DNA from: Escherichia phage F2
Direction: 5' to 3' (one strand)
Sequence record: NC_054913.1
Length of the DNA: 64,000 bases
The notes under the pieces were generated by a model. That model had not been told where the DNA came from. It saw only the letters and a list, made by a program, of their open reading frames with translations, and made no database searches. Shown here piece by piece: positions 511-30,812 of the stretch. Position numbers and translations under genes: made by a program. The first letter of the stretch is position 1; each line of letters opens with the position of its first letter.

Positions 511-1146
511 ATGAAAACTACTCCTATTACTATCGCTATTGACGCAATCATAAAACAAGCTTCTTCTTTGGCCGCTATGGCCAAAGTAATTAGTCAAAAC
601 CCTGCTCGTTATAATGCTATTCTAGAAACTCTTCGACGCCCAGGACTTAGTAATTATGAAAGCCGAGTAATTATTACAGGTGTTGGTAAGAATGCTAATA
701 TTGCAACTAAAGCTTCTGAGACATTTGCTTCACTCGGTATCCCGAGTATGTACTTGAACACTGGACATTATTCTCACGGTGATGCAGGATTCATTGCGCC
801 TAATGATGTGTTGATTCATATTAGTCGTTCTGGTAAAACTGAAGAAATGATAGGCGTGGCTAAGCATCTTAAAATGATTCGTCCGAACGTCAAACAGATT
901 CTGTTGCATTGTAACCCGGACATTCCACAAGAATACGAAGCTCTTTTTGATTATACGTTCTGTACAGGCATCGCAGTAGAGGTTGATGAGAATTCTCTGG
1001 CTCCGACCATGTCCACTACATTGTTGTTAGCGCTTATCGATACGTTTGCTATCAACCTTTCGTCTGAACGTGGATTTACCTCTAATGACTTCCTTAAGTT
1101 CCACCCTGGCGGTGCACTAGGTGCCATGTTACGAGGCGAACAATGA
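511..1146 (+). CDS. SIS-domain sugar-phosphate isomerase, KdsD/GutQ-like (arabinose-5-phosphate isomerase type, no CBS domains)
   Basis: ITGVGKNANIATKASETFASLGIPSMYLNTGHYSHGDAGF...HISRSGKTEEM...LAPTMSTTLLLALIDTF...FHPGGALG aligns motif-for-motif with the KdsD SIS domain (GMGKSG..FASTGTPS..HGDLG..ISNSGES..LAPTSSTT..SHPGGALG). Confidence 0.8.
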   Translation: MKTTPITIAIDAIIKQASSLAAMAKVISQNPARYNAILETLRRPGLSNYESRVIITGVGKNANIATKASETFASLGIPSMYLNTGHYSHGDAGFIAPNDVLIHISRSGKTEEMIGVAKHLKMIRPNVKQILLHCNPDIPQEYEALFDYTFCTGIAVEVDENSLAPTMSTTLLLALIDTFAINLSSERGFTSNDFLKFHPGGALGAMLRGEQ

Positions 1147-1286
1147 AAGCAATAACAATAGGACTTTTACTATTGATGCTTGTCATGACTATCTACTGGA
1201 GCTTAACGGCTCCAGTAATGATTCCGACTCTTATAATCGGATGGATTATGATTGGACTACAAGCAAAGTATGAATGCTTTAACTAG
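1143..1286 (+). CDS. small hydrophobic membrane peptide (47 aa), below ORF-track cutoff
   Basis: ATG overlaps stop of upstream gene (ATGA); translation MKAITIGLLLLMLVMTIYWSLTAPVMIPTLIIGWIMIGLQAKYECFN predicts two TM helices; T4 has small membrane proteins (imm) near gene 43. Confidence 0.3.
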   Translation: MKAITIGLLLLMLVMTIYWSLTAPVMIPTLIIGWIMIGLQAKYECFN

Positions 1287-1327
1287 AATAGTGTACAATA
1301 CTCCTACTTACCAATGAGGACCACAAC

Positions 1328-3013
1328 ATGAAAAAAGCTGTTATTCTTGGTGCTGGACTGGCAACTCGTTTGTATCCAATAACGCATCATATTCCTAAGG
1401 TGCTTGTTAACTATAAACAAGACACTATTCTGAGCAATTTGTATACAATTTATTCTGACCTTGGCGCAGATGAAATTATTGTAGTAGTTCATTCAAAATT
1501 TGCTGAAACTGTTCGAGCTTATTGTGAGCAAGAAGGGTTCAATGTGACTATTCGTACAGTTGATGAAGCGTATGGTTCTGCTTATGCTCTTGCTAAATTG
1601 CACAAAGATTTAGACGGCCATAATGTAATTGTTAACTGGTGTGATATTATTCCTGATTTTGGTTCATGGTCTTGGAATGTTAACGCAATCTATGTTAAGG
1701 GTGACGAATGTCGATATAATTTCGACGGTGAAAATATCACTAATGTAGGTTCAACAGGTGGTAATGTTGTAGGAATTTATCAGTTCAAAGACTGGGAATT
1801 CTATATGGGTTCTACTGATGAGGAAATTCATGAATACTGCAAAGGACGTGATTTCGTAGAATTCCTTTACGGCAGCGCATTCAATAAATCAGAGCTTATG
1901 AATCTAATTGATTTAGGTGATATGCCTAAACTTGAAAAAGCTCATGAAGTTCGTGAACTTAATCGTAGTTTTAATGCAGTTGAAATTGGTGAAGAAACTG
2001 TAACTAAATTCGCATTAACCGAACAGGGCCGAGCTCTTCAGAAAGATGAGATTTCATGGTATCTTAAAGTGAAATCAGATTCAGTTCCTCAGTTAGTTTC
2101 TGTTAATGAAAATAACTTTGAAATGGAACGCATTAAAGGTAAGCCGGCATTTGAATATATTAAATCCAAATCAAGTCTTGCTCGTCCACAAATTGTTGAT
2201 GCAATTTTAGATGCACTGAAATTCAGCACAGACACTTATTTTGTAAGTCCTGAAACTGTTCGTCGTGATTTCACTAAAGAATTCTATACTAAAGTTATTG
2301 ATCGTTGTGAAAGTATTCAACCATTGATTGATTCATTTGGTAAAATCACACATGTGAACTACACTAAGATCGGACGTCTGAAGCCAATGTTGAAACAAGC
2401 TTTAGAACACCTTATTCGTTATCATAACCGTTCTCAGGGACAGTACTCTGTTATTCATGGTGACCCGAACTTCAGTAATACTATGATTACTGATAACGGC
2501 GAAGTCAAGTTTATCGACCCTCGTGGATATTTTGGTGAAACCAAGATTTACGGGCCAAAATTGTATGATGAAGCTAAAGTGCTTTACGCTGTTTCAGGTT
2601 ATGATGAATTCAACGCTAATCCGACTTGGGGACAGTTTACTATTGATGAAACAACTTGTAATGTGACTATTAACATCAATCCATTAGTTTACAAATATGG
2701 AAAGATGAGTTCGTTTAACGAGTATCATCATTTGGCAGTGGCAATTATCTGGATTGCATTAGGTGGTTATTTCAAGAATAATCCACTTAAAGCGGTAGCC
2801 GCATATTATAAAGGTATGGAACTTCTGACTAAGCAATTACGTAATATGGGCCGTGTACTTCAAGACGGCTCTATTAGTTATGACGTAGCAGAACCTGTAA
2901 CGGCTACTCTGATTACAAAAAATCCTGGTAAATGGGTACTAACTGATAAAGAAACTGGTGTTTCCTATCGTCCAATCGGTGGCGATATCACTCATCAATG
3001 GGAACGAATCTAA
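1328..3013 (+). CDS. bifunctional sugar-1-phosphate nucleotidyltransferase (N-term) / APH-type sugar kinase (C-term)
   Basis: N-terminus ILGAGLATRL is the GxGTRL signature of RmlA/GlmU-type NDP-sugar pyrophosphorylases; C-terminal region has Brenner motif VIHGDPNFSN and IDPRG typical of aminoglycoside/choline-kinase fold. Confidence 0.7.
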   Translation: MKKAVILGAGLATRLYPITHHIPKVLVNYKQDTILSNLYTIYSDLGADEIIVVVHSKFAETVRAYCEQEGFNVTIRTVDEAYGSAYALAKLHKDLDGHNVIVNWCDIIPDFGSWSWNVNAIYVKGDECRYNFDGENITNVGSTGGNVVGIYQFKDWEFYMGSTDEEIHEYCKGRDFVEFLYGSAFNKSELMNLIDLGDMPKLEKAHEVRELNRSFNAVEIGEETVTKFALTEQGRALQKDEISWYLKVKSDSVPQLVSVNENNFEMERIKGKPAFEYIKSKSSLARPQIVDAILDALKFSTDTYFVSPETVRRDFTKEFYTKVIDRCESIQPLIDSFGKITHVNYTKIGRLKPMLKQALEHLIRYHNRSQGQYSVIHGDPNFSNTMITDNGEVKFIDPRGYFGETKIYGPKLYDEAKVLYAVSGYDEFNANPTWGQFTIDETTCNVTININPLVYKYGKMSSFNEYHHLAVAIIWIALGGYFKNNPLKAVAAYYKGMELLTKQLRNMGRVLQDGSISYDVAEPVTATLITKNPGKWVLTDKETGVSYRPIGGDITHQWERI

Positions 3014-3399
3014 TGCACCGTGTAGAAAACATGCTTAATCTTTGTTTTGATGTCGACGATTGTATAACAGAGTGGAATAACAATCGTGATTACGTGAACT
3101 TCAAGCCAGACGTCGAAATGGTGACTGCCATTAATGCCCTGTATGATGCAGGGCATACCATAACGCTTTACACTGCTCGCGGTATGAAGTCAGTCGGTCC
3201 TGGTCGTATAGCAATTGACATTCTCCCAAGTCTGATTCAGAACTTGGCAAACATTGGATTGAAGTACCATAATTTGCTAACACATAAACCAGTATATGAT
3301 TGGATTATCGACGACAAAGCTATGCGTCCTGACGAATTCAAAGCTCTTATGAATAAAGGCGAATTCGAAACATTTAAATCATATAAACCGAATCTATAA
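3013..3399 (+). CDS. HAD-superfamily phosphatase (small, GmhB/KdsC-like)
   Basis: HAD motif I LCFDVDDCIT, motif II LYTAR, motif IV WIIDDK; start chosen at ATG overlapping upstream stop (TAATG). Confidence 0.6.
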   Translation: MHRVENMLNLCFDVDDCITEWNNNRDYVNFKPDVEMVTAINALYDAGHTITLYTARGMKSVGPGRIAIDILPSLIQNLANIGLKYHNLLTHKPVYDWIIDDKAMRPDEFKALMNKGEFETFKSYKPNL

Positions 3400-3446
3400 T
3401 AATTTAAGTAAGACCTGCAAAAACCATCGCATCAATTAACGGCGAG

Positions 3447-4616
3447 ATGCAAAAAATGAATACCTTTAAAATCGGAACGAATTTTGATTTAGCTCTTCTT
3501 GATAAAATCGTAGAGCTCAATAAAACTTATCCTAATAGCTTGATAAACGAAGTATACGGCTCTACAAGAGAAATGGCTTTTGTAGCAGCCAGACCTGATT
3601 TTAGGCTTCCTGACGTTGACAAAAAGATGTTAGAAGATTACGTTAAACGTTGTAACGAATTAGGTATTTGCTTTAACTATACACTCAACACGATAAATCC
3701 TGGTTCAAAAAGAGAACTAGTTGAGTGGAAGAAGAAAGCTATTCAGGACTATGTTCAGTATCTTTGGTCAATAGGCGTATGGCGTATTACTATCGCTAAC
3801 CCTGTTGTTATGGAAATTGTTCGTGAAGTCAATAAAGACATTGAGATTGAAGTTTCAACAATTCTACATGTCGATGCTGTAACTCAAATCAAATACTTGC
3901 ATGACCAATATAATATCAAAAAGGTCTGCTGTGGAATTCATAAGAACCGTTCAGTTTCTTTCCTGAAGCGTGCAGCAGAGTTTTGTAATAAGAACAATAT
4001 AATATTTGAAGTTCTTGTAAATGAGTTCTGTTCTAATGCTGGTAAAGGGTATACAACACATTGTAGCTATCGTGACTCTTGCTATATTTTCCATAGCACC
4101 GATGTTACAGTAGATGATGCCAAATCCTTAAATGGATATCCAATGCAGCACTGTATTAAAGCTCGTGATACAGACCCATTTAACTGGTTGAGAACTCGTT
4201 TTGTTCGTCCTCAAGATTTGAAACTTTATAATGATATTGGTATCACTCAATTCAAAGTTTCAGGACGTACAGGTAGCACCGACTACATTTTGAAAGTTCT
4301 TGAAGCTTACGCTTCTGAAAAGTTTGAAGGTAATTTGTTGGAATTGTGGAAGCCTTTAGAGACCATTTTCACTCTTGAAAATGAGACTGAGTTTTCACAT
4401 ACGGTAAATATTGAAACCTCTTTGTTAGATGGCTTTTTAGAAAAAAGGTGGTTCAAACATCCAGATTTCGATTGTGCTAATGAAATCTGCGGGACGACGT
4501 GTACATATTGTGAAAGATATTATAAACGTCAGTTATCTAAAAATGGGTTATCAGAAAACTCTATATCTATTATTGATATAACTAACTCTGATGACGCTTT
4601 GAGGTACCCAGAATGA
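3447..4616 (+). CDS. Cys-rich protein of unknown function (possible metal/Fe-S enzyme) in sugar module
   Basis: 389 aa ORF, consistent coding frame; cysteine clusters EFCSNAGKGYTTHCSYRDSCY and C-terminal CANEICGTTCTYC; weak resemblance to U32-type TIM-barrel enzymes, not confirmable by eye. Confidence 0.55.
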   Translation: MQKMNTFKIGTNFDLALLDKIVELNKTYPNSLINEVYGSTREMAFVAARPDFRLPDVDKKMLEDYVKRCNELGICFNYTLNTINPGSKRELVEWKKKAIQDYVQYLWSIGVWRITIANPVVMEIVREVNKDIEIEVSTILHVDAVTQIKYLHDQYNIKKVCCGIHKNRSVSFLKRAAEFCNKNNIIFEVLVNEFCSNAGKGYTTHCSYRDSCYIFHSTDVTVDDAKSLNGYPMQHCIKARDTDPFNWLRTRFVRPQDLKLYNDIGITQFKVSGRTGSTDYILKVLEAYASEKFEGNLLELWKPLETIFTLENETEFSHTVNIETSLLDGFLEKRWFKHPDFDCANEICGTTCTYCERYYKRQLSKNGLSENSISIIDITNSDDALRYPE

Positions 4617-4894
4617 TTTCTAGAAAAACTTTTAACCACCAACTTAACGAAGAGATTTTGACTATTAAAATTAACAGCAACGAACAAATTCTTAAAAAGG
4701 CCCTTATGGGCCTGTTTGAAACTAAAGCGGCTAAAGTGATTAAAGAACCTGTTCAATTGTAATACTACGCTGATGCATTTCTTCATAGTGTTCTTGGAAG
4801 TATCGATGCTGAAGCTTTACGTTATATCAACATCGCTAAGAAATTCAAATAAGCTTTATGAATTGAGTATATAATAAATTGTATTGAGGTAAAC

Positions 4895-5611
4895 ATGGGA
4901 AAACATAACACAATGAAATATATTAAAGCCGCAGATTTTCAATCCGCATTTAAAGCTGTCAATCGTGAAATTTTAGAAAACCCGGAATTCGTTACTGATT
5001 CTCGTATTGGACGTTGTAATGAAATTGGGTCTATGACAGTAGTTGTTGATACCCCTTCATCATTCAAAATGACAGACCCACGTATTAATCGCATCTCTTA
5101 TGAATATGCTGAAGATTTCTGGAAATTTATGATTTCTGGTGGTACTGATGCAGAAGAAGCATTTAAGGCATATCCTAACGTTGCTAAATTTATTTCTAAA
5201 CCTAAATCAGATGCTTTGCCTGCAAACTTCAACACTTTCTACGGTCCACGAATTGCGGCCCAGTTACCAACTCTTCTAAAAGAACTTAAAGAAAAACCTA
5301 ACTCTCGAAGAGTTGTGTTCCAAATTCTAGAAAGTTCTGATCAGGCTTTGCTTGATTCAGACGAAACACTTGAATATCCATGTACTGACTCAGTGACTTA
5401 TTATATTCGTGATGGTAAGCTTTATACCCACTGTCATATGCGTTCTCAGAACTGTGCTGTTGTTATGCAGTTGGATTTTTATCTCCAAGGAAAATTACTT
5501 CATTATATCGCTAACGAATGTGGTGTAGAAGTTGGTGATTATACTCATACCATGGTAAGTGCCCATGTGTTTGAACGTGATTTTGATTATGTTAAAGGAT
5601 TCCTTGTCTAA
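4895..5611 (+). CDS. 42: dCMP hydroxymethylase (thymidylate-synthase superfamily)
   Basis: NSRRVVFQI...YPCTDSVTYYIRDGKLYTHCHMRSQNCAVVMQLDF parallels TS catalytic region (DSRRII...PCHxxxQFYVxDGKL...RSxD) but is distinct from td at 53514; syntenic with T4 gene 42; SD GAGGT upstream. Confidence 0.75.
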   Translation: MGKHNTMKYIKAADFQSAFKAVNREILENPEFVTDSRIGRCNEIGSMTVVVDTPSSFKMTDPRINRISYEYAEDFWKFMISGGTDAEEAFKAYPNVAKFISKPKSDALPANFNTFYGPRIAAQLPTLLKELKEKPNSRRVVFQILESSDQALLDSDETLEYPCTDSVTYYIRDGKLYTHCHMRSQNCAVVMQLDFYLQGKLLHYIANECGVEVGDYTHTMVSAHVFERDFDYVKGFLV

Positions 5612-6510
5612 TGGCTATTTTCCGCGTACCTATCTTGAGTATGCGGTCTTATGAAACTGGACAGTATGCTATCCTTAAGGATGGCAACTTCCAACTTCAT
5701 TTGCACCGTGCTAATCCGGGTGATGTGATTACATATCCACGTAATGCATCTGATATTAAAGAATGCGAACGTCTTTTCCCAGAATTTAAGTTTGTTCCAT
5801 TATGGTATAAAGATAACGCATATAACACTCGTAAATATTTCTGGTCTGAAAATGAATTTGTGGTTGATTCATTAATTGATTATTATGATTGTGATTTTCT
5901 AATCACAGATATCACTGGATATGACGGCAATTTTGACGTAGAATTCAATTTCAATATCACTGCAGACCCTAATAAACCACGTTTTTATATTGACGAATTC
6001 TTAAAAACCGACATGTTGTCTGTTAATCGTTCACTTCAAACTACTGTGTTGAATGAACGTCAAAAAGAAGTGCTGGTTAACGCAGGTGCAGATGGTAATA
6101 AGATTATCGTAACGCAGAAAGTTATACGTCCTTCCATCATGCAGCGTCTTGTAGGTGATTTGGCTCCTATTCATCTAGATGGTATTTTTCATCCATTTCG
6201 AATTAGTGACCCGTGCTATCGTTTTGAACAAGTGGTTGAATGTGCAATTCAATTAGGTCAACCGCTTTATATAACCGATCCAAATAATAGCTTCGACAGA
6301 AATAAGTATCCTGAAGAAGCGCTGATTCGAATTTTTAAACCAACTAAAACTGAGTACTATCAAATTCTTAAAGGACGTCCGAAGATTCAATACTTCGAAA
6401 ATCCTGAAGAAGTATTCCATCCAGGTCTTGGCGAGTTCATCTACTTTAATGCTTTAATTTCTTCGCCGTATAATATACCTAAATATGAAGATGTCGTAAT
6501 CGAGGAATAA
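5611..6510 (+). CDS. hypothetical protein occupying the T4 beta-glucosyltransferase position
   Basis: 299 aa ORF, start overlaps stop of gene 42 (TAATG); no motif I recognise; not similar to remembered T4 beta-gt. Confidence 0.5.
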   Translation: MAIFRVPILSMRSYETGQYAILKDGNFQLHLHRANPGDVITYPRNASDIKECERLFPEFKFVPLWYKDNAYNTRKYFWSENEFVVDSLIDYYDCDFLITDITGYDGNFDVEFNFNITADPNKPRFYIDEFLKTDMLSVNRSLQTTVLNERQKEVLVNAGADGNKIIVTQKVIRPSIMQRLVGDLAPIHLDGIFHPFRISDPCYRFEQVVECAIQLGQPLYITDPNNSFDRNKYPEEALIRIFKPTKTEYYQILKGRPKIQYFENPEEVFHPGLGEFIYFNALISSPYNIPKYEDVVIEE

Positions 6511-6511
6511 A

Positions 6512-7060
6512 ATGGCTAAAATTATTTTAGTAGATGGCCCGGATAATGCTGGTAAAACAACTTTCATTAATGACATAATGGAAATTAGTGAAAGATATGT
6601 AAAGATTGATTTCCCTAAACGAACAGTTGATGGACGTTTCGATGTTAAGTCTCGAAATGAAGTTGGCTGTTTCGAAACGATGTTGAATTATTTAGACCCT
6701 ACTAAGATTTATCTGTTAGACCGTGGATATATTAGTAACTGGGTTTATGGACGTATTCGACAAGATGCGGACTCGGTTCTTGACGTTTATGAACAGGATT
6801 ATGTTCGTCTTTGCCAAAACCATGATGTGTTCACAATTATTTTAACACGTAACGAAATGACTGAAAGTTTTGAAGACGACCTTATTACTTTGTCTTCATT
6901 CAGGTTTAATACAGTCATTTCGTATTTTGAAGAGTTTGCAATTCATAACGAAATCCAAACGTATCAATTACTTAATCATGATGGTGCTAACAAAGTTATA
7001 GGATTTAATGCAAGCGAACGTAATAATTTGATTACAGAAATTATCAAATGGGCTCGTTAA
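6512..7060 (+). CDS. P-loop nucleoside/nucleotide kinase-like protein (thymidylate-kinase fold)
   Basis: Walker A ILVDGPDNAGKTT at N-terminus, DRGY lid-like segment; resembles dTMP kinase/dNK family layout. Confidence 0.55.
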   Translation: MAKIILVDGPDNAGKTTFINDIMEISERYVKIDFPKRTVDGRFDVKSRNEVGCFETMLNYLDPTKIYLLDRGYISNWVYGRIRQDADSVLDVYEQDYVRLCQNHDVFTIILTRNEMTESFEDDLITLSSFRFNTVISYFEEFAIHNEIQTYQLLNHDGANKVIGFNASERNNLITEIIKWAR

Positions 7061-21531: not shown

Positions 21532-22026
21532 ATGAATATCAATACTACGGCTACTTACATCCTGAAAGACGAAAAACAAATCAACTGGTACGGTGCTTCA
21601 GTGCGAGCTTACGAAAAGTTTTGTGAAATTTTAGGTGCCACTCAAGGTAATAGTTTCACTATTGTTAACTTTATCAAACAAGCTGAAGGCCCTTGGTTAT
21701 TCTTAGAAATTAAAAATTCATACGGTACAATTTCTACTACCGCCATTCCAAGCACCGACTTTGAACTGTTGATTGAAGAAGCACCTGTTAAAGATGGTCT
21801 CCACTTTGATATGGATATCGCTTGTATGTACGGTACTCTGATTAAGCCTATTGAGCCTACTGATTTGTTGTGTAAAGCTGTTTCAATTCGACGACCATTC
21901 GCTGGACCGGTAAGTGGCTGGGTAACTGACCAGTGGATTGAAGATGGGGTTGAACTTCTGAACGTTGTTCATGCCGGTGATTTTAGTGTGGTTCCACGTA
22001 GTGCTGTGGTTAATATCCTTAATTAA
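21532..22026 (+). CDS. hypothetical protein, paralog family member 1
   Basis: C-terminal block GWVTDQWIEDGVELLNVVHAGDFSVVP shared with the next two ORFs. Confidence 0.5.
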   Translation: MNINTTATYILKDEKQINWYGASVRAYEKFCEILGATQGNSFTIVNFIKQAEGPWLFLEIKNSYGTISTTAIPSTDFELLIEEAPVKDGLHFDMDIACMYGTLIKPIEPTDLLCKAVSIRRPFAGPVSGWVTDQWIEDGVELLNVVHAGDFSVVPRSAVVNILN

Positions 22027-22027
22027 T

Positions 22028-22058
22028 GTTGTACATCCAAGGATGGATGGAGTATAAT
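22028..22058 (+). promoter_or_regulatory. early promoter-like module (TTGTAC -35 variant, TATAAT -10)
   Basis: gttgtacatccaaggatggatggagtataat. Confidence 0.4.
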
Positions 22059-22088
22059 GAATTCAACTTAAACAAAGAGAGAAAAAAT

Positions 22089-22586
22089 ATGATTACTATT
22101 GGTGAAATCCTTCGTGTATCTCCTGCTTCTCGTTCTAAAGCTGCAGGTCGTCTGGTTGAAGTAGCAGGGCTTCGTACTAACGGCATGGGACGTGTTAAAG
22201 AAGTTAAAGTTCGAATCATGCCCAGTTTTGGCGGACAAGATGCCCAGTATGCTTACGTAAGTCCTAAATTCCTGGAAAAACATATACGAGTCCAATTTGC
22301 TTCAAGCGAAGAAGTTGCACCTGCACACTTTGCTTCAAGCGATATCGTTGAGCCTAATGTACAGTTCAAATGGGCCTTGTGTAAAGGCGTTGAATTTATA
22401 ACCGATAAAGAATTCGATTACATCGACGAATACGGTTATCCAAGCACAACCGATACCATGTGTGGCTTCATTAGTGACCAATGGGTAGAAGATGGCGAAA
22501 AGTTATACAATATCGTATTCTTAGGTGACTTCCGAGTTGTTAAAGAATCTGAAATCACTCGCTATGTGTCTCCTCGTAAAGCTTAA
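22089..22586 (+). CDS. hypothetical protein, paralog family member 2
   Basis: VSPASRSKAAGRLVEV... and GFISDQWVEDGEKLYNIVFLGDFRVV shared with neighbours. Confidence 0.5.
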   Translation: MITIGEILRVSPASRSKAAGRLVEVAGLRTNGMGRVKEVKVRIMPSFGGQDAQYAYVSPKFLEKHIRVQFASSEEVAPAHFASSDIVEPNVQFKWALCKGVEFITDKEFDYIDEYGYPSTTDTMCGFISDQWVEDGEKLYNIVFLGDFRVVKESEITRYVSPRKA

Positions 22587-22595
22587 GGAATTATT

Positions 22596-23015
22596 ATGAA
22601 TATTGTAAATCTCTCTACAGGTGATTACGTATATGTATCTGTTGCTTCTCGCTCTAAAGTTGCCGGGAAGTTGGTTGAAGTTCTTTCTGTGAGTGATCCG
22701 GTTTTTGGACGTAACGAAGTTAAAGTTCGTGACGCTGATGGTAACATTGGTTATGTTAAAAGCCAATTCATTGAGCCAGAAGAACGTGTGTTCAAATGGA
22801 AACTGTGCAGGTCTGTTTTAGTTGTAAAAGACCGTGAATTCACTATTGCTGCGGCAACCGATGGAACGCCGTGGAAAACTAAGCAAATCGCCGGATTTAT
22901 TAGCGACCGTTGGGTAGAAGATGGTGTTAAGCTTTATAACATCGTTTTCGCCGGACAGTTCATGGTAGTTCCTGAGTTCCAAATCAAAAAATATTGTCCA
23001 GCATCTTTTGCATAA
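22596..23015 (+). CDS. hypothetical protein, paralog family member 3
   Basis: VSVASRSKVAGKLVEV... and GFISDRWVEDGVKLYNIVFAGQFMVV. Confidence 0.5.
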   Translation: MNIVNLSTGDYVYVSVASRSKVAGKLVEVLSVSDPVFGRNEVKVRDADGNIGYVKSQFIEPEERVFKWKLCRSVLVVKDREFTIAAATDGTPWKTKQIAGFISDRWVEDGVKLYNIVFAGQFMVVPEFQIKKYCPASFA

Positions 23016-24387: not shown

Positions 24388-26205
24388 ATGATTAAAAATG
24401 AAATTAAGGTATTGTCAGATGTAGAACATATTAAGAAACGAAGTGGCATGTATATTGGTTCTTCGGCCAAAGAAGCCCACGAGCGTTTTTTGTTTGGTAA
24501 ATATCAACAAGTTGAATATGTTCCTGGTCTGGTTAAATTAATCGATGAGATTATTGACAACTCGGTTGATGAAGCTATTCGTACATCATTTAAGTTTGCA
24601 AATAAAATTGATGTGCAAATTAAAAATAATCAAGTCTCAGTAGAAGATAACGGACGTGGTATTCCTCAAGGTTTAGTTACCGACCAAACAGGTGAACAAA
24701 TTCCTGGGCCTGTAGCAGCCTGGACTATTCCAAAGGCCGGCGGTAACTTTGGTGATGACTCTGAACGTAAGACCGGTGGTATGAACGGCGTCGGGAGTAG
24801 TTTAACTAATATCTTCTCTACGTTGTTTACAGGCATCACGTCAGATGGCGAAAATGAAATCACTGTTAACTGTTCAAACGGAATGGAAAACAAATCATGG
24901 TCTTCTAAGAAATCTAAAGGTAAAGGCACTAAAGTAATCTTCACTCCCGATTTCTCTTCATTTGAAGAGCATAATTTATCTCAAATTTATTTAGATATTA
25001 CTTTAGACCGACTTCAAACATTGGCAGTCGTTTATCCTGATATCAAGTTCACATTTAATGGTAAAAAGGTTGATGGTAATTTTAAACGATTTGCTAAACA
25101 ATTTGGTGAAGATAACATCATTCAAGAAAATGATAAAGTCTCTATAGCATTCACAACATCACCAGACGGCTTCCGTCATTTAACTTATGTGAATAACATT
25201 CATACTAAAAATGGTGGTCATCATGTTGAATGTGTAATGGATGATATCTGCGAACATCTTTTGCCCGGCATTAAAAAGAAATATAAGGGTATTGAAGTCA
25301 CTAAAGCTCGTGTTAAAGAATGTCTCACAATGTTGATGTTTATTAGAGACATGAGCAACATGCGTTTTGATTCTCAGACTAAAGAACGTTTAACGTCAAC
25401 GTATGGTGATATTCGTAATCATATCCAATTAGATGCTAAGAAAATTGCTCAGGCACTTCTTAAAAATGAAGCTTTGATTATGCCTATTGTTGAAGCAGCA
25501 TTAGCTCGTAAATTGGCAGCAGAAAAGGCTGCAGAAACTAAAGCAGCTAAAAAGGCAACTAAAGCTAAGGTTCATAAGCATATTAAAGCTAACCAATGTG
25601 GTAAAGATGCGGATACGACATTGTTTTTAACAGAAGGTGATTCGGCAATTGGTTATCTCATTGATGTTCGTGACCGTGAACTACACGGCGGATTCCCATT
25701 ACGTGGTAAGGTGATGAATAGCTGGGGTATGTCATATGCTGATATGATGAAGAACAAAGAGCTCTTTGATATCTGTGCTATCACAGGTCTTATTCTTGGT
25801 GAAAAGGCAGAGAATACAAACTATCGTAATATTGCAATTATGACTGATGCCGATCATGATGGTCTTGGAAGTATTTATCCGGCTTTGCTTGCTTTCTTTA
25901 GTAATTGGCCTGAATTGTTTGAACAAGGACGTATTCGCTTTGTTAAAACGCCTGTAATTATTGCACAAATTGGCAAAACACAAAAATGGTTTTATACTGT
26001 AGCTGAGTATGAAGAAGCTAAAGATACACTTCCTAAGCATAGTATTCGATACATCAAGGGATTGGGCTCCCTTGAAAAGTCAGAATATCGTGAAATGATT
26101 CAGAACCCTGTGTACGACGTAGTTAAACTTCCTGAAAATTGGAAAGAACTCTTTGAAATGTTGTTGGGTGATGATTCAGAACTTCGTAAAGAATGGATGT
26201 CCTAA
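24388..26205 (+). CDS. 39: type II DNA topoisomerase large (ATPase) subunit, gp39 with gp60-equivalent C-terminus fused
   Basis: GHKL ATPase motifs (LIDEIIDNSVDEA, GxxGxG region) and Toprim region; 605 aa, about the sum of T4 gp39 + gp60. Confidence 0.9.
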   Translation: MIKNEIKVLSDVEHIKKRSGMYIGSSAKEAHERFLFGKYQQVEYVPGLVKLIDEIIDNSVDEAIRTSFKFANKIDVQIKNNQVSVEDNGRGIPQGLVTDQTGEQIPGPVAAWTIPKAGGNFGDDSERKTGGMNGVGSSLTNIFSTLFTGITSDGENEITVNCSNGMENKSWSSKKSKGKGTKVIFTPDFSSFEEHNLSQIYLDITLDRLQTLAVVYPDIKFTFNGKKVDGNFKRFAKQFGEDNIIQENDKVSIAFTTSPDGFRHLTYVNNIHTKNGGHHVECVMDDICEHLLPGIKKKYKGIEVTKARVKECLTMLMFIRDMSNMRFDSQTKERLTSTYGDIRNHIQLDAKKIAQALLKNEALIMPIVEAALARKLAAEKAAETKAAKKATKAKVHKHIKANQCGKDADTTLFLTEGDSAIGYLIDVRDRELHGGFPLRGKVMNSWGMSYADMMKNKELFDICAITGLILGEKAENTNYRNIAIMTDADHDGLGSIYPALLAFFSNWPELFEQGRIRFVKTPVIIAQIGKTQKWFYTVAEYEEAKDTLPKHSIRYIKGLGSLEKSEYREMIQNPVYDVVKLPENWKELFEMLLGDDSELRKEWMS

Positions 26206-26230
26206 GCTCCTTCGGGAGCTTCATTTTAAT
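26204..26230 (+). terminator. rho-independent terminator after gene 39
   Basis: aagctccttcgggagctt + cattttaatttt. Confidence 0.6.
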
Positions 26231-26247
26231 TTTAATAAGGCTTAATT

Positions 26248-27348
26248 ATGAAAGTTATGTTTATCCCATCTCGTGCAGTCCCGTTTAATCCTGACCGTGT
26301 ACAAGGTGGCCTTGAAGCAGTACATTTAAATGTGTTGAAATATCTTGTGTCCATCGGCGCTGATATTGATTATATCGGCTTTGATAATGACACGTTTGGT
26401 GATTGGAAAGTTACACACCATCCTGTTGGTCATCTGACTAAATTCAGTCTAGGTATGAGTTATACTATGGCTCGTAAGATTGTTGAACTAGCCGGCATCC
26501 ATGAATACGATTTTGTTGTTACTATGGAACCGACTAAACTAACCGTTCAGGCAATTAAAGACGCAGGTCTCTCTAAAGTTCATAAGAATTTTATGGCAAC
26601 ACCATTTGAACCGGTATCTCGTGGCATTGTTCAAATTTGGGACCAGACTATTCAAATTCATAAGAATGGTGGTAAGAGTTATGCTCCTACTAAAGCCTTC
26701 CGTGAATTTGAACGCAAATATTGTTATATGACTTCAGGTCTGACTGACAAAATTGATTATGATTATTGGCGAGCAAATCCGTTGTTTGAAGCCGAAGATT
26801 ATCCGGTTATTTGTTTGAATGAGAAACCTGAAGTTCTTCCGGCGACTGATCTGATTATTAGTGCACAACGTTATGACACTAAAATGCGTCGCACTGATGT
26901 TGCTCTTGAAGCAATTAAAGCACTAGGCGAAAATGGTGTAGGATACTGTCCAAGCAAATGGGCACCACCAGCTAAATATCCTGTTATTATTGATGCTCCA
27001 CACAGTGAAATCATGGAACGTCTTAAAACAGCTAAAGCACTTATTAATACTTGTCCTGACACAGGTACAGTAGAGAATAGTTCTATTGAAGCCATCTCTA
27101 AAGGTGTCCCTGTAATCCAGTTAGTTTTTAAGGATTATCCTCATGCGACATTTGAATACGACCCAGATACTGTGCGTGTAGAAATTGATTCCTCTACTCC
27201 TAAGAAAGAAGTAGTTGCGCTTTACACAAAAGCTGTATTAGAATTCACTGATACATACGAAGCTCGAGTTAAACGTGCTGAAGCAGTATGGAAGAAGTAT
27301 AACCGAGATGCAGTTGTTGCGATGTGGGATAAAATCTTCACAGCGTAA
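26248..27348 (+). CDS. GT-B-like glycosyltransferase candidate (possible DNA sugar transferase)
   Basis: N-terminal VQGGLEAVHLNVLKYLVSIGADI and C-terminal TGTVENSSIEAISKGVPVIQ resemble GT4-family GG motif and E-x7-E donor-binding motif; located between 39 and rIIA. Confidence 0.55.
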   Translation: MKVMFIPSRAVPFNPDRVQGGLEAVHLNVLKYLVSIGADIDYIGFDNDTFGDWKVTHHPVGHLTKFSLGMSYTMARKIVELAGIHEYDFVVTMEPTKLTVQAIKDAGLSKVHKNFMATPFEPVSRGIVQIWDQTIQIHKNGGKSYAPTKAFREFERKYCYMTSGLTDKIDYDYWRANPLFEAEDYPVICLNEKPEVLPATDLIISAQRYDTKMRRTDVALEAIKALGENGVGYCPSKWAPPAKYPVIIDAPHSEIMERLKTAKALINTCPDTGTVENSSIEAISKGVPVIQLVFKDYPHATFEYDPDTVRVEIDSSTPKKEVVALYTKAVLEFTDTYEARVKRAEAVWKKYNRDAVVAMWDKIFTA

Positions 27349-27440
27349 ATCCTGAATAGCCTGAGGCACTATTACACATAAGATGATAGATTATATGGTC
27401 TTTAGTAATAGTGCCCTAGGAATCTACTGAAGAGAATATT

Positions 27441-27641
27441 ATGAGAACATATAACGTGGACTTGGAACTTTTTGATAAAGCTGTGCTCCGGGAATTCCGG
27501 CTTATCCAAAGATTTTTTGATATCGAATCAGCTGAAGCCTTTAAAGAACGCTTTAAGGAAATTCGATATAAAATACAAACCGATACAGCTACTAAAGAAG
27601 AACTTCTTGAAGTAGCAGAAATTTTTAAACGTAACTTGTGA
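27441..27641 (+). CDS. hypothetical protein (rIIA.1 position)
   Basis: 66 aa ORF upstream of rIIA. Confidence 0.45.
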   Translation: MRTYNVDLELFDKAVLREFRLIQRFFDIESAEAFKERFKEIRYKIQTDTATKEELLEVAEIFKRNL

Positions 27642-27653
27642 TGAGAGAAAAAT

Positions 27654-29867
27654 ATGATTATTGAAACGGCTAAAGAAACGATTATTGGTTCAGGTGGTAA
27701 GAGCACAGCATTTACTATTCAAGGCAATAGCAAAGTTTATAAGATTTTGTCTAATGACCTTTATACAAACAAAGAATTGGCTTGTGTACGTGAATTAATC
27801 ACAAACTGTATCGATGGTCAAATTCTTAATGGTTGCACTGATAAGTTTATTGTTCAGGCTCCAGGTCGTTTAGACCCACGTTTTGTAGTTCGAGACTTTG
27901 GTCCTGGTATGAGTGATTTCACCATTCGAGGTAATGACGAAGAGCCAGGAATCTATAACTCATATTTCGCTTCAACTAAAACATCGAGTAACGATTTCAT
28001 TGGTGGATTCGGACTCGGCTCTAAAGCTCCACTAGCGTATACCGATACGTTTAACCTTACGTCTTATCACAACGGTGAAGTTCGTGGTTATGTAATTTAT
28101 CAAGATGACAGTGGTCCACAGATTAAGCCGACCTTCGTAGATAAGATGGGCCCTGATGACCGGACCGGCGTTGAAGTAGTTGTGCCTGTTAACCCAGAAG
28201 ATTTTGAAAAGTTCGCATCCGAAATTGCTTATGTTATGCGTCCTCTCGGCGATATTGCAGAAGTTCGTGGTGTTAAAGATATCAAATACTTCCCGGAATT
28301 CGATGATGTATATTTGGCCAAGGAAGCTCCATGGGGTGAACGTGGTAATATCATGGCTGTTTATGGTGGTATTGTATATCCAATCGGAAGTGTTATTAAA
28401 GAACAAACATGGATGATGACGCGATGCACTACAGCTTATATTAAATTCCCTATGGGTGAACTAGATGTAGCCCCGTCTCGTGAAGCATTGTCATTTGATA
28501 AACGTACAGTAGCAAATATCCATAAACGTGTTGCAGAAATCGATGCAAAATTATTTGCTGAAGACTCTAAGAAATGGATTGATTGTGAATATCCACGTCA
28601 TGTATTCCGTGAAATCGATTCTCTTGGTTACTCTGCTCGTAGATACATGGAAAAAGCCGGTTCTAATATTGAATCACTGAAATATTCTAAAGAACAGCTA
28701 ACTTATTCTGAGTTGTACAAACGTTTTAAAATGGGTCCTGAATGGTGCAACCTTGGTGTTGTATACGATATCGTTTCAGATCCACGACTTCGTCGTATTC
28801 GTGAAAGCGGAAGCTCGTCTTCAACTATTTCAATTAATAGCCTGCTAGGTATTAGTCGTAAGCATATTGATATTGTTATTGACGATGTGAAAGGCCGCGT
28901 ACCAATGATGCGTGCTCTGAACGATGCTTTGACTTCCACCGATGCATCAACACTCGTTGATAAGGTTCCTTCCGGATGGGGTAGTAGCGTATTATTCGTT
29001 AATCCGGAAGATGAAGTTGCAATGAAACTTCTAGAACGATTAAAGGTTATTTTCGCTGGTGATAGCCTTAAATTTTATAAGACCTCTGAAATTCTTGCAT
29101 TAGTTAAACCGTGGATTGAAGTTAAAGAACGTTCATCACAGCCTCGTCCTAAATCACCGAGTGCTCATCGGTTCTTTAAGAATGAAAACGATGTTTGGGT
29201 ATCAGAAGATCTCTTTATTCCGGCCGGTAAAGCTGATGAGATTCAAGGTTATGTTGTAATTCGTAATCGTTCTAACGCTGAATGTCTTGACGCAGATAAA
29301 GGTTGGTTGAACTATGATTCTAGTTTCTTGACTCGTATTGCCGATTTATCAGGTATTAAAGAGTTCACTGTAGTCCGTCCACAGATTGCTAAGAAAGTTC
29401 GTAAACTTGGTGAAGTAGAATGCTTGTTCGAAAAATCAATTAATGACTATATTACGCTAATTGATAAAGTGGATTATGATGAGTATGTATCGCCAAGTCG
29501 TAGAGCACAGCCTTATTTGAATCATATTACTCGTAATGAAGAGCTTAACTTCCTTAGTAAGTATTTTAGCTCTAAGAACAAAGAAATCAGTAAAGATTTT
29601 GCAAAACTTTCAACAGTAAATAATCGTTGGGGATGGAATCGATTCGCAGGTGCTGATAATAGAGACCTGAACAGGAAGTTAGAATTGTGTGCTAAAATTT
29701 TCGATAAGCTTAAAGATAATGCTTACGATAATGATGATAAAATGGTTATTGAATTTGAAACCAATTATCATATTGTGTCAGAATACATGGGACGACGTGG
29801 TACTCTTTCTAAAGAACAGGTCGCTCAAATCGTTAAATTCATGAAGGCCGTGGAAGCGGCCAAATAA
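27654..29867 (+). CDS. rIIA: rIIA protein
   Basis: MIIETAKETIIGSGGKSTAF...LYTNKE...RELITNCID...GRLDPRFVVRDFGPGMSDF...IGGFGLGSKAP matches T4 rIIA. Confidence 0.9.
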   Translation: MIIETAKETIIGSGGKSTAFTIQGNSKVYKILSNDLYTNKELACVRELITNCIDGQILNGCTDKFIVQAPGRLDPRFVVRDFGPGMSDFTIRGNDEEPGIYNSYFASTKTSSNDFIGGFGLGSKAPLAYTDTFNLTSYHNGEVRGYVIYQDDSGPQIKPTFVDKMGPDDRTGVEVVVPVNPEDFEKFASEIAYVMRPLGDIAEVRGVKDIKYFPEFDDVYLAKEAPWGERGNIMAVYGGIVYPIGSVIKEQTWMMTRCTTAYIKFPMGELDVAPSREALSFDKRTVANIHKRVAEIDAKLFAEDSKKWIDCEYPRHVFREIDSLGYSARRYMEKAGSNIESLKYSKEQLTYSELYKRFKMGPEWCNLGVVYDIVSDPRLRRIRESGSSSSTISINSLLGISRKHIDIVIDDVKGRVPMMRALNDALTSTDASTLVDKVPSGWGSSVLFVNPEDEVAMKLLERLKVIFAGDSLKFYKTSEILALVKPWIEVKERSSQPRPKSPSAHRFFKNENDVWVSEDLFIPAGKADEIQGYVVIRNRSNAECLDADKGWLNYDSSFLTRIADLSGIKEFTVVRPQIAKKVRKLGEVECLFEKSINDYITLIDKVDYDEYVSPSRRAQPYLNHITRNEELNFLSKYFSSKNKEISKDFAKLSTVNNRWGWNRFAGADNRDLNRKLELCAKIFDKLKDNAYDNDDKMVIEFETNYHIVSEYMGRRGTLSKEQVAQIVKFMKAVEAAK

Positions 29868-29876
29868 GGAAACATT

Positions 29877-30812
29877 ATGTACAATATCAAATGCTTGTCC
29901 CAAGAAGAACAGTTAGAAGCTTACGACCTGGTCAAATCAGGCAAATGGACCCGTAAAGAAATTGCCGATTACTTTGACATTTCAACAGATACTCTTCGTA
30001 AGATTGTTAAGAATTTTAAAGCTGAAGAGAAAGCAGCTGAATTTGAAGACGAAGAACAGGTCCCAGAAAATAATGAACCTATTATTACAGGTCATCGTCC
30101 AGAAATCGTATGGAACGCGTCATCTAAATTTATTTCAATCATTGAAGGACGCGTAGCATACAATGCGACCCCATCAAGTCATGCAAATTTTGAAGAAATT
30201 AAAGCCAATTTGGTCGCAGGAAACCTTAGTAAAGCTGTCGAACTTATTAACATCAAGAAAGCTATTACTAAGTTTGTTGACGGTAATGTTACTATTGAAG
30301 GTGGTAGTTTATTTTATCAAGGTATAGAGATTCGTTCAGGGCTGGTTAACCGTATTATTGATTCCATGGAAAAAGGCGAAGACTTTAAATTCTATCTGCC
30401 GTTCCTTGAAAACCTGTTAGAAAACCCAAGCGAAAAAGCTGTACAACGTTTATTCGACTTCTTGGTTGCAAACGATATTGAAATCACTGAAGACGGACAT
30501 TTCTATGCGTGGAAAGTAGTTCGTAAAGACTATTTAGATTGCTATAGCGGCACATTTGATAACTCGCCTGGTAAAGTTGTTTCAATGCCTCGTACTCGTG
30601 TTAACGATGATGATACTCAAACCTGCTCTCGTGGTCTACATGTTTGTGCTAAATCATATATTCGTTACTTTGGTTCTAGCTCAGATAAAGTTGTTAAGGT
30701 TAAAGTTCATCCACGTGATGTTGTGTCCATCCCAGTTGACTATGGCGATGCTAAGATGCGTACTTGTCGTTATGAAGTAATTTCAGACGTTACTGAATTA
30801 TTTGCAGAATAA
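29877..30812 (+). CDS. rIIB: rIIB protein
   Basis: MYNIKCLSQEEQ... with long C-terminal identity block (GGSLFYQGIEIRSGLVNRIIDSMEKGEDFKFYLPFLENLLENPSEKAV...) to T4 rIIB. Confidence 0.9.
   Translation: MYNIKCLSQEEQLEAYDLVKSGKWTRKEIADYFDISTDTLRKIVKNFKAEEKAAEFEDEEQVPENNEPIITGHRPEIVWNASSKFISIIEGRVAYNATPSSHANFEEIKANLVAGNLSKAVELINIKKAITKFVDGNVTIEGGSLFYQGIEIRSGLVNRIIDSMEKGEDFKFYLPFLENLLENPSEKAVQRLFDFLVANDIEITEDGHFYAWKVVRKDYLDCYSGTFDNSPGKVVSMPRTRVNDDDTQTCSRGLHVCAKSYIRYFGSSSDKVVKVKVHPRDVVSIPVDYGDAKMRTCRYEVISDVTELFAE

What the first reader, a model, noticed from the sequence alone, without database searches (positions are those of the whole stretch)
26248..27348. GT-B-like glycosyltransferase candidate between topoisomerase gene 39 and rIIA
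366-aa ORF with GT4-like GG motif and E-x7-E-like donor-binding motif at a locus where T4 has only small ORFs/mobA. It is the most plausible transferase to place the activated sugar onto hmC, analogous in position to the arabinosyl-hmC transferase described in RB69-like phages.
Basis: partly seen in the sequence, partly recalled or inferred. Interest (0 to 1): 0.75.

Follow-up and report, generated by a model that had tools for sequence, protein, structure and literature searches.

The report
Known phage DNA arabinosyltransferase (RB69 gp3)
The ORF is a real glycosyltransferase gene, but it is the already published and crystallised RB69 ORF003c/gp3-type enzyme of RB69-like phages, which most likely adds the second arabinose to arabinosyl-5-hydroxycytosine in phage DNA rather than the first sugar onto hmC.

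Summary
The 366-aa ORF at 26248..27348 (+) is real and lies between the fused topoisomerase gene 39 and rIIA.1. It is 363/366 identical to RB69 ORF003c (gp3). It is also 363/366 identical to the phage HY126 glycosyltransferase, whose structures are in the PDB (9IQZ apo, 9IR0 with UDP, released 2025). The GT-B glycosyltransferase call is therefore correct, but not new.

The functional reading needs correcting in two ways.
- **The base:** RB69-type phages make 5-hydroxycytosine, not hmC. The window encodes the matching thymidylate-synthase-like hydroxylase.
- **The step:** a second, unrelated GT at 5611..6510 (RB69 gp46:47) sits inside the arabinose cluster. It occurs in 347 phage records across many genera. 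The ORF003c family occurs in only 210.

Copy number of the family tracks sugar number:
- none in mono-pentosylated Thanatos;
- one in di-arabinosylated Mosigvirus;
- two in tri-arabinosylated Acinetobacter phage DLP3, whose two copies together add a third arabinose to RB69 DNA in vitro.

The ORF is therefore most likely the chain-extending β-arabinofuranosyltransferase, as already proposed in 2026 papers. The finding is ordinary and already known.

The parts
26248..27348 (+). The ORF in question: a 366-aa GT-B glycosyltransferase, ortholog of RB69 ORF003c/gp3 and of the HY126 GT (PDB 9IQZ/9IR0). Proposed second (beta) DNA arabinofuranosyltransferase.
   Evidence: Conserved residues are G20, G21, E94, R125, G142, R208, R214, E276 and E281.
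26204..26221 (+). GC-rich hairpin with a UUCG loop (AAGCTCCTTCGGGAGCTT), followed by a T-rich tail. It lies right after the topoisomerase stop codon and is terminator-like. The ORF is probably reached by read-through.
   Evidence: pattern match only; function inferred.
26237..26240 (+). AAGG Shine-Dalgarno-like element, 7 nt upstream of the ATG.
   Evidence: Read directly from the sequence.
5611..6510 (+). The other GT of the pathway: a 299-aa ORF, unsplit ortholog of RB69 gp46:47. Proposed first (alpha) arabinosyltransferase acting on 5-hydroxycytosine. It has no sequence similarity to the ORF in question.
   Evidence: PMC13326640.
4895..5611 (+). Thymidylate-synthase homologue, the dCMP to 5-hydroxy-dCMP synthase (RB69 gp48 ortholog). 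It carries RSQN where E. coli ThyA has RSCD.
   Evidence: PMC13326640.
1328..3013 (+). Bifunctional NTP-transferase plus kinase (RB69 gp52:53, AfhE-like). It makes the UDP-arabinofuranose donor.
   Evidence: PMC13326640 section 27.
2998..3399 (+). RB69 gp51 ortholog, a HAD-like sugar phosphatase (AfhF-like).
   Evidence: Position and size match RB69 gp51. The function comes from PMC13326640. There is no Pfam hit.
511..1146 (+). SIS-domain arabinose-5-phosphate isomerase (RB69 gp55 ortholog).
6512..7060 (+). RB69 gp45 ortholog, a putative nucleotide kinase for the modified dCMP.
   Evidence: PMC13326640 Table 1. There is no Pfam hit.

Best explanation
The ORF encodes the Mosigvirus accessory DNA arabinosyltransferase, known as RB69 ORF003c/gp3 and solved as the HY126 glycosyltransferase.

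It is a two-domain GT-B enzyme. Its C-terminal domain binds a UDP-sugar, taken to be the UDP-arabinofuranose made by the phage cluster at about 511-7060 in this window.

After replication, the in-cluster GT (5611..6510) attaches an alpha-D-arabinofuranose to 5-hydroxycytosine. This enzyme then adds a second arabinofuranose, beta-1,3-linked, to that first sugar. The result is the di-arabinosylated fraction of cytosines found in RB69-type DNA. The thicker sugar coat helps the DNA escape nucleases and other defences.

- **Shown:** the fold, UDP binding by a 99%-identical protein, orthology, the phyletic pattern, and arabinose-on-arabinose transfer by the two Acinetobacter-phage paralogs acting together.
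- **Inferred:** that this particular protein performs step 2, its linkage, and its stereochemical mechanism.
For: **Identity**
- 363/366 identical to RB69 gp3, in the same locus.
- 363/366 identical to PDB 9IQZ/9IR0, 'phage HY126 glycosyltransferase' with and without UDP.

**Fold**
- My AF2 model matches 9IQZ at TM 0.72. The next matches are BshA, PimA and MshA. 268 PDB chains score E<=1e-3, essentially all GT-B.
- Viral GT-B enzymes are also matched.

**Conservation**
- The donor-domain residues R208, R214, E276 and E281, and the G286-P288 block, are conserved across the family.

**Chemistry**
- RB69 DNA holds mono-arabinosylated 5hodC and beta-D-Araf-(1-3)-alpha-D-Araf-5hodC (PMC13326640).
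- Mosigvirus NP, Bas46 and Bas47 are also di-arabinosylated.

**Phyletic pattern**
- The cluster GT is in 347 phage records across Escherichia, Klebsiella, Serratia, Enterobacter, Proteus, Yersinia, Shewanella, Pseudomonas and Acinetobacter phages.
- The ORF003c family is in 210 records, essentially all Mosigvirus-type or Acinetobacter phages.
- It is absent from the Thanatos cluster, which gives a mono-pentose, and from the JS98, TG1 and T4 topoisomerase loci.

**Copy number tracks sugar number**
- 0 copies gives one sugar and 1 copy gives two.
- DLP3, with 2 copies, has three sugars. Maestro also carries 2 copies.

**Linkage to the cluster**
- In Maestro and DLP3 both paralogs lie directly downstream of the arabinose cluster.

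**Biochemistry**
- DLP3 gp76 and gp77 together, with UDP-Araf, add a third arabinose to RB69 DNA in vitro (PMC13326640).

**Published assignments**
- Two 2026 papers give this gene the second step.
Against: - No held paper reports an assay or a knockout of RB69 gp3 or its Mosigvirus orthologs. The two papers most likely to contain one could not be read. They are He et al. 2026, Nat Chem Biol, and Mahler et al. 2025, Cell Host Microbe.
- DLP3 gp76 and gp77 showed no activity alone, so a stand-alone step-2 activity for a single family member has not been shown.
- The Mosigvirus gene is an outgroup to the gp76/gp77 duplication. Function cannot be transferred from one particular paralog.
- The Thanatos ortholog of the cluster GT was reported as a UDP-xylose pyrophosphorylase in vitro. 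This clouds the assignment of step 1.
- The nearest structural neighbours are retaining GT4 enzymes, while the product linkage is beta. That is consistent only if the donor is the beta-anomer, which I could not check.
Confidence: 0.8

Rival explanations
1. It is the primary transferase that attaches the first arabinose to the modified cytosine. This is the 2018 proposal of Thomas et al. and the first reader's reading.
For: - Thomas et al. 2018 picked ORF003c as the only GT-like RB69 protein by HMM/HHpred (PMC6024577).
- At that time gp46/47 was split by a sequencing error in the RB69 record and was overlooked.
- The Thanatos paper reports the gp46:47 ortholog TH1_063 as a UDP-xylose pyrophosphorylase rather than a transferase.
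Against: - About 137 phage records carry the arabinose cluster without any ORF003c-family gene.
- These include Thanatos, whose DNA is still pentosylated on hydroxycytosine.
- They also include Serratia phages. Lee et al. list two of these, LC53 and 92A1, as containing arabinosylated 5hodC.
- The first sugar therefore does not need this family.
- The window keeps an intact cluster GT, 46-72% identical to those of such phages.
- The base is 5hoC, not hmC.
Confidence: 0.1
2. It is partly redundant or dual-specificity. It can glycosylate both the bare 5-hydroxycytosine and the first arabinose, backing up the cluster GT.
For: [quoted passage not shown]
- No single-enzyme assay that I could read separates the two steps.
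Against: - The first linkage is alpha and the second beta. One active site using one donor would not normally give both.
- The two GTs share no sequence similarity.
Confidence: 0.05
3. It glycosylates something other than DNA, such as a host envelope glycan, a protein or a small molecule, and is unrelated to DNA modification.
For: - The nearest solved folds act on lipids and small molecules: PimA, BshA, MshA.
- In Mosigvirus the gene lies about 20 kb from the arabinose cluster.
Against: - In Acinetobacter phages both family members sit directly downstream of the arabinose cluster, on the same strand.
- Those two members act on DNA in vitro.
- The family is found essentially only in arabinosylating phages.
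Confidence: 0.03

Closest known systems
RB69 ORF003c / gp3 (NP_861693) and phage HY126 glycosyltransferase (PDB 9IQZ, 9IR0)
   Same: 363/366 identical to each. Same length. Same locus between gene 39 and rIIA.1. Same phage genus, Mosigvirus.
   Different: Three substitutions relative to each. Nothing functional is expected to differ.
Acinetobacter phage DLP3 gp77 and gp76 (Maestro 078 and 077)
   Same: Same family, at 41-43% identity over the full length, with the same conserved residues. Together they transfer arabinofuranose from UDP-Araf onto already arabinosylated DNA.
   Different: - There are two tandem copies inside the arabinose cluster, against one copy 20 kb away.
- The duplication is specific to the Acinetobacter-phage lineage.
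- Those phages reach three sugars. Mosigvirus stops at two.
T2/T6 beta-glucosyl-HMC-alpha-glucosyltransferase, which makes gentiobiosyl-hmC
   Same: It works alike. It is a second, accessory phage GT that extends a sugar already attached to modified cytosine in DNA, so that only part of the cytosines become disaccharide-modified (general knowledge; mentioned).
   Different: The sugar is glucose, the base is hmC, and the sequence family is unrelated. Homology was not tested here.
T4 alpha- and beta-glucosyltransferases (AGT, BGT)
   Same: GT-B fold, UDP-sugar donor, post-replicative action on phage DNA.
   Different: - They act directly on the base hydroxyl of hmC.
- They do not appear among the 50 best-scoring rows shown by either fold search, PDB or viral.
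- HHpred-level similarity only was reported in 2018.
Bacterial GT4 enzymes BshA, PimA and MshA
   Same: They are the closest non-phage folds. They share the Gly-rich loop after beta-1 (GGLE) and the C-terminal E...EA..G.PV helix.
   Different: - About 12-14% identity.
- No Pfam or NCBIfam hit.
- The glutamate spacing is x4, not x7.
- Their acceptors are lipids or small molecules.

Membership tests
GT-B fold glycosyltransferases | Two Rossmann-like domains with an inter-domain cleft | tested here: met
   The AF2 model, though low-confidence (pLDDT 58.7), has alternating beta/alpha elements in two halves. It matches the solved 99%-identical structure 9IQZ at TM 0.72, followed by hundreds of GT-B chains.
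GT-B fold glycosyltransferases | Nucleotide-sugar binding by the C-terminal domain | tested here: met
   PDB 9IR0 is the 99%-identical protein 'with UDP'. R208, R214, E276, E281 and the G286-P288 block are invariant or nearly so, and 256-315 is the most conserved stretch.
CAZy GT4 / Pfam Glycos_transf_1 plus Glyco_trans_4 | Match to the family profile above threshold | tested here: not met
   No Pfam hit at E<=1 and no NCBIfam hit at E<=0.1. Only distant family members give sub-threshold hits, to GT4-conflict and Glycos_transf_1.
CAZy GT4 / Pfam Glycos_transf_1 plus Glyco_trans_4 | E-x7-E motif in the C-terminal domain | tested here: not met
   At that position the motif is E276-x4-E281. The only literal E-x7-E (86-94) is in the N-terminal domain.
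CAZy GT4 / Pfam Glycos_transf_1 plus Glyco_trans_4 | Closest solved folds are GT4 enzymes | tested here: met
   BshA 3mbo, PimA 4nc9/2gej and MshA 3c4q rank directly after the self-hits. The depositors name the chain 'Glycosyltransferase subfamily 4-like N-terminal domain-containing protein'.
RB69 ORF003c/gp3 family (PHROG 8302), phage DNA arabinosyl-extending transferases | Full-length sequence membership | tested here: met
   PHROG 8302 at 1e-222 over positions 1-366. 99% identity to RB69 gp3. 41-43% identity to DLP3 gp77 and gp76.
RB69 ORF003c/gp3 family (PHROG 8302), phage DNA arabinosyl-extending transferases | Co-occurrence with the 5hoC-arabinose cluster (5hodCMP synthase, UDP-Araf synthesis genes, cluster GT) | tested here: met
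   The whole cluster is present in the window at 511-7060. The genera carrying the family are a subset of those carrying the cluster GT.
RB69 ORF003c/gp3 family (PHROG 8302), phage DNA arabinosyl-extending transferases | Transfer of arabinofuranose from UDP-Araf onto arabinosylated DNA | not testable with these tools
   Shown in vitro only for DLP3 gp76 and gp77 together (PMC13326640). Assays of the HY126 or RB69 protein may exist in papers that are not held.
T4-type hmC DNA glucosyltransferases (AGT/BGT) | Acceptor is 5-hydroxymethylcytosine in DNA | tested here: not met
   The phage's ThyA homologue is the 5hodCMP synthase type, 235/237 identical to RB69 gp48 and carrying RSQN. RB69 DNA contains 5hoC derivatives, not hmC.

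The most novel reading that the evidence does not exclude
The enzyme may be an inverting beta-arabinofuranosyltransferase built on a GT4-like scaffold, which is normally retaining. It would use an invariant N-domain acidic residue such as E94 as its catalytic base. Alternatively, the phage donor could be the 1,2-cis UDP-beta-D-Araf and the enzyme retaining. Either way, the family would be a small, phage-restricted GT-B lineage specialised to recognise a sugar displayed on duplex DNA. It has only 11 representatives among 1.84 billion protein clusters. The solved HY126 structures and the accompanying 2026 paper have probably settled this already.
Probability: 0.25. Interest if true: 0.35.

Novelty: already known. 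Interest (0 to 1): 0.12.

Why it matters
Sugar-coated cytosines let T-even-like phages evade restriction enzymes, CRISPR nucleases and DNA glycosylases. The number of sugars changes which defences work. Which gene adds which sugar therefore matters for phage therapy and phage engineering.

For this window, though, the gene is an almost exact copy of one that has been:
- flagged in 2018;
- crystallised by 2025;
- placed in the pathway by 2025-2026 papers.

The value of this check is in correcting the annotation: 5-hydroxycytosine rather than hmC, and the second sugar rather than the first. It is not a discovery.

Tried and rejected
- **Profile libraries:** Pfam and NCBIfam scans of the ORF gave nothing. 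A profile search of PDB sequences found only the self-match.
- **Structure prediction:** the AF2 model built from a 6-sequence alignment was poor, at pLDDT 58.7. I used it only for fold-level matching.
- **Deeper alignment:** the profile search of 1.84 billion representatives returned only 11 proteins. That was too few to reach bacterial GT4 families or improve the model.
- **Papers not held:** Mahler et al. 2025 (Cell Host Microbe) and He et al. 2026 (Nat Chem Biol) could not be read. Searches for their nomenclature (5ara-hC, Afh, 9IQZ) found nothing more.
- **Thanatos TH1_065:** this 378-aa gene sits after the kinase, so I suspected a hidden family member. It is rejected: hhalign probability is 0.1% and it is a Peptidase_U32 protein.
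- **JS98 gap:** I checked whether the 588-bp gap between 39 and rIIA.1 in JS98 hides a remnant of the gene. It does not.
- **Ortholog assignment:** I tried to tie the ORF to one DLP3 paralog. It is rejected: the gp76/gp77 duplication is lineage-specific.
- **Foreign origin:** composition gives no sign of recent foreign origin. GC is 0.395 and GC3 0.264, like the neighbouring genes.

Full report
**1. Observation**

- Upstream is a 605-aa topoisomerase II large subunit at 24388..26205. It has DNA_gyraseB, HATPase_c and Toprim hits, and is the fused gp39+gp60 form.
- Downstream are rIIA.1 at 27441..27641 (Pfam T4_RIIA1, 3.7e-30), rIIA at 27654..29867, and a 311-aa ORF at 29877..30812, presumably rIIB.
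- A UUCG hairpin with a T-rich tail follows the topoisomerase stop codon at 26204..26221. An AAGG lies 7 nt before the ATG.

The ORF is a real, conserved gene. It hits PHROG 8302 at 1e-222 over its full length. tblastn finds it in 210 phage records: about 154 at 95% identity or more and 56 below 60%.

The motif claims hold only in part.
- G20-G21 is conserved across the family.
- The only literal E-x7-E is E86..E94 in the N-terminal domain.
- At the place where GT4 enzymes carry E-x7-E, the sequence is TGTVENSSIEAISKGVPV, that is E276-x4-E281. Both glutamates are invariant.

T4 has mobA, 60.1, gene 60 and rIIA.1 between 39 and rIIA, so the locus comparison is broadly right.

**2. What it is**

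The window comes from a Mosigvirus (RB69-like) phage.
- The ORF is 363/366 identical to RB69 ORF003c (RB69p003, NP_861693) and sits in the same place.
- It is also 363/366 identical to a chain of PDB entries 9IQZ and 9IR0. The structure library titles these 'phage HY126 glycosyltransferase' and 'phage HY126 glycosyltransferase with UDP', released 2025-07-16.

My own AF2 model was of low confidence (pLDDT 58.7). Even so it matched 9IQZ at TM 0.72, then the GT4 enzymes BshA, PimA and MshA, and many other GT-B chains. 268 matches scored E<=1e-3. The viral structure library gave the same picture. The GT-B fold and UDP-sugar binding are therefore established experimentally for an essentially identical protein.

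By sequence the family is isolated.
- There is no Pfam or NCBIfam hit.
- Only 5 clusters appear in the 5.8-billion-protein search.
- Only 11 of 1.84 billion representatives match at E<=1e-3.
- Conservation is highest in residues 256-315 of the donor-binding domain. Invariant residues include R208, R214, E276 and E281, plus E94, R125 and G142 in the N-terminal domain.

**3. Surroundings and pathway**

The same window carries the whole RB69-type arabinosylation cluster:

| Coordinates | Product |
|---|---|
| 511..1146 | SIS-domain arabinose-5-phosphate isomerase |
| 1328..3013 | Bifunctional NTP-transferase/kinase |
| 2998..3399 | gp51-type phosphatase |
| 3447..4616 | U32-peptidase-like protein |
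| 4895..5611 | Thymidylate-synthase homologue |
| 5611..6510 | 299-aa protein, the unsplit ortholog of RB69 gp46:47 |
| 6512..7060 | gp45-type kinase |

The thymidylate-synthase homologue is 235/237 identical to RB69 gp48. It reads RSQN where, as I recall the sequence, E. coli ThyA reads RSCD. Lee et al. 2026 showed that gp48 makes 5-hydroxy-dCMP, and they give the Asp169-to-Asn change as the signature of this activity (PMC13326640).

The same paper determined the RB69 nucleosides by MS/MS and NMR. They are mono-arabinosylated 5hodC and beta-D-Araf-(1-3)-alpha-D-Araf-5-hydroxy-2'-deoxycytidine. The earlier 'arabinosyl-hmC' assignment is now described as erroneous (PMC13390438). The base in this phage is therefore 5-hydroxycytosine, not hmC.

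**4. Which step**

Thomas et al. 2018 proposed ORF003c as the arabinosyltransferase (PMC6024577). At that time gp46 and gp47 were split in the RB69 record.

Lee et al. 2026 propose instead that gp46:47 adds the first, alpha-linked sugar and gp3 the second, beta-linked one. Their Table 1 labels gp3 'beta-arabinosyltransferase 2'. [quoted passage not shown]

These are hypotheses, so I tested them by distribution.
- **The cluster GT is widespread.** It occurs in 347 phage records from Escherichia, Klebsiella, Serratia, Enterobacter, Proteus, Yersinia, Pectobacterium, Edwardsiella, Shewanella, Pseudomonas and Acinetobacter phages.
- **The ORF003c family is restricted.** It occurs only in Mosigvirus-type records and Acinetobacter phages, plus one unexplained record named 'Tegunavirus'.
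- **It is absent elsewhere.** I found no trace in the Thanatos cluster, or at the topoisomerase loci of JS98, TG1 and T4. Thanatos DNA nevertheless carries a pentose on hydroxycytosine. Serratia phages LC53 and 92A1 are listed as containing arabinosylated 5hodC. The first sugar therefore does not need this family.
- **Copy number follows sugar number.**
  - Thanatos has none and carries one pentose.
  - Mosigvirus has one. RB69, NP, Bas46 and Bas47 are di-arabinosylated.
  - Maestro and DLP3 have two, and DLP3 is tri-arabinosylated.
- **In Acinetobacter phages the paralogs join the cluster.** Both lie directly after the cluster's kinase gene.
- **There is direct biochemistry for the family.** DLP3 gp76 and gp77 together, with UDP-Araf, add a third arabinose to RB69 DNA in vitro.

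gp76 and gp77 are 56% identical to each other and 41-43% identical to the window protein. A neighbour-joining tree places their duplication inside the Acinetobacter-phage lineage. The Mosigvirus gene is thus co-orthologous to both. The two GTs in the window share no sequence similarity.

**5. Mechanism**

The most likely mechanism is as follows.
- The phage makes 5hodCTP and incorporates it during replication.
- The cluster enzymes make UDP-arabinofuranose.
- The cluster GT puts alpha-Araf on the 5-hydroxyl.
- This enzyme then binds UDP-Araf in its C-terminal domain, using R208/R214 for the diphosphate and E281 for the ribose, by analogy with GT4 enzymes.
- It transfers a second Araf to O3 of the first sugar on part of the cytosines.

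Shown: the fold, UDP binding, orthology, the distribution, and the activity of the paralog pair. Inferred: step 2 for this protein, the residue roles, and whether the chemistry is retaining or inverting. The last point depends on the unknown anomer of the donor.

A held paper notes that deleting 'the arabinosyltransferase Aat' in the Mosigvirus Bas46 made it sensitive to a plasmid-borne defence (PMC13216743). From memory, unverified here, Aat in Mahler et al. denotes the arabinose-extending transferases. I could not confirm that Aat is this gene.

**6. Rivals**

- **Primary transferase onto the base.** Contradicted by the distribution data. Confidence about 0.1.
- **Dual specificity.** Unlikely, given the alpha and beta linkages. 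Confidence about 0.05.
- **A non-DNA acceptor.** Contradicted by cluster linkage and the in vitro data for the paralogs. Confidence about 0.03.

One loose end remains. The Thanatos ortholog of the cluster GT was reported to form UDP-xylose from UTP and xylose-1-phosphate. That sits awkwardly with its role as the first transferase.

**7. Novelty and verdict**

The gene was named as a candidate in 2018, its structure was deposited in 2025, and it was placed in the pathway in 2025-2026.

The fold-level interpretation is right. The acceptor (hmC) and the step (first sugar) are most likely wrong. The 'analogous' RB69 gene is in fact the same gene.

This finding is already known, and its interest is low.

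Noticed in passing
window 26205-26248; L002 3161-3958; L010 3309-4106: The short spacer between the topoisomerase gene and the GT is an insertion hotspot. Several Mosigviruses (NRG-P0074, p000v, phiC120, AV116, BEU50) carry a roughly 800-bp homing-endonuclease gene there. The Tequatrovirus vB_EcoM_F1 has an annotated homing-endonuclease gene of the same length at the same junction but no GT. This window has neither insertion.
   Followed up: partly
window 27365-27375 and 27405-27415: A perfect 11-bp inverted repeat (GGCACTATTAC / GTAATAGTGCC) with a 29-nt AT-rich loop. It lies between the GT stop codon and the rIIA.1 start, and could be a regulatory or terminator element.
   Followed up: no
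window 5611-6510 and 1328-3013, against RB69 gp46/gp47 and gp52/gp53: Both genes are single intact ORFs here (299 aa and 561 aa) but are split in the RB69 reference record. This agrees with the published view that the RB69 splits are sequencing errors.
   Followed up: partly
L006 3995-4897 (Thanatos TH1_063, ortholog of window 5611-6510): The Thanatos paper reports this protein as a UDP-xylose pyrophosphorylase in vitro. Other papers treat the orthologs as the first DNA arabinosyltransferase. The two claims are unreconciled.
   Followed up: no
phage collection: One record whose organism name begins 'Tegunavirus' holds an ORF003c-family match. Yersinia phage TG1, the type Tegunavirus, has none in the first 6.5 kb of its record, which includes its topoisomerase locus. 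It may be a mislabelled Mosigvirus or a third lineage.
   Followed up: no
P0007-P0010, P0012: These family members, 35-39% identical to the window ORF, come from metagenomes. P0008, the one I searched with, has no close counterpart among the 50,697 isolate phage records. Other, uncultured phage lineages probably carry arabinose-extending transferases.
   Followed up: partly
window 21532-23015: Three consecutive ORFs (164, 186 and 139 aa) share a C-terminal block (..ISDQWVEDG.KLYNIVF.G.F.VV). They are tandem paralogs corresponding to the MotB-like and motB.2 genes of RB69.
   Followed up: no
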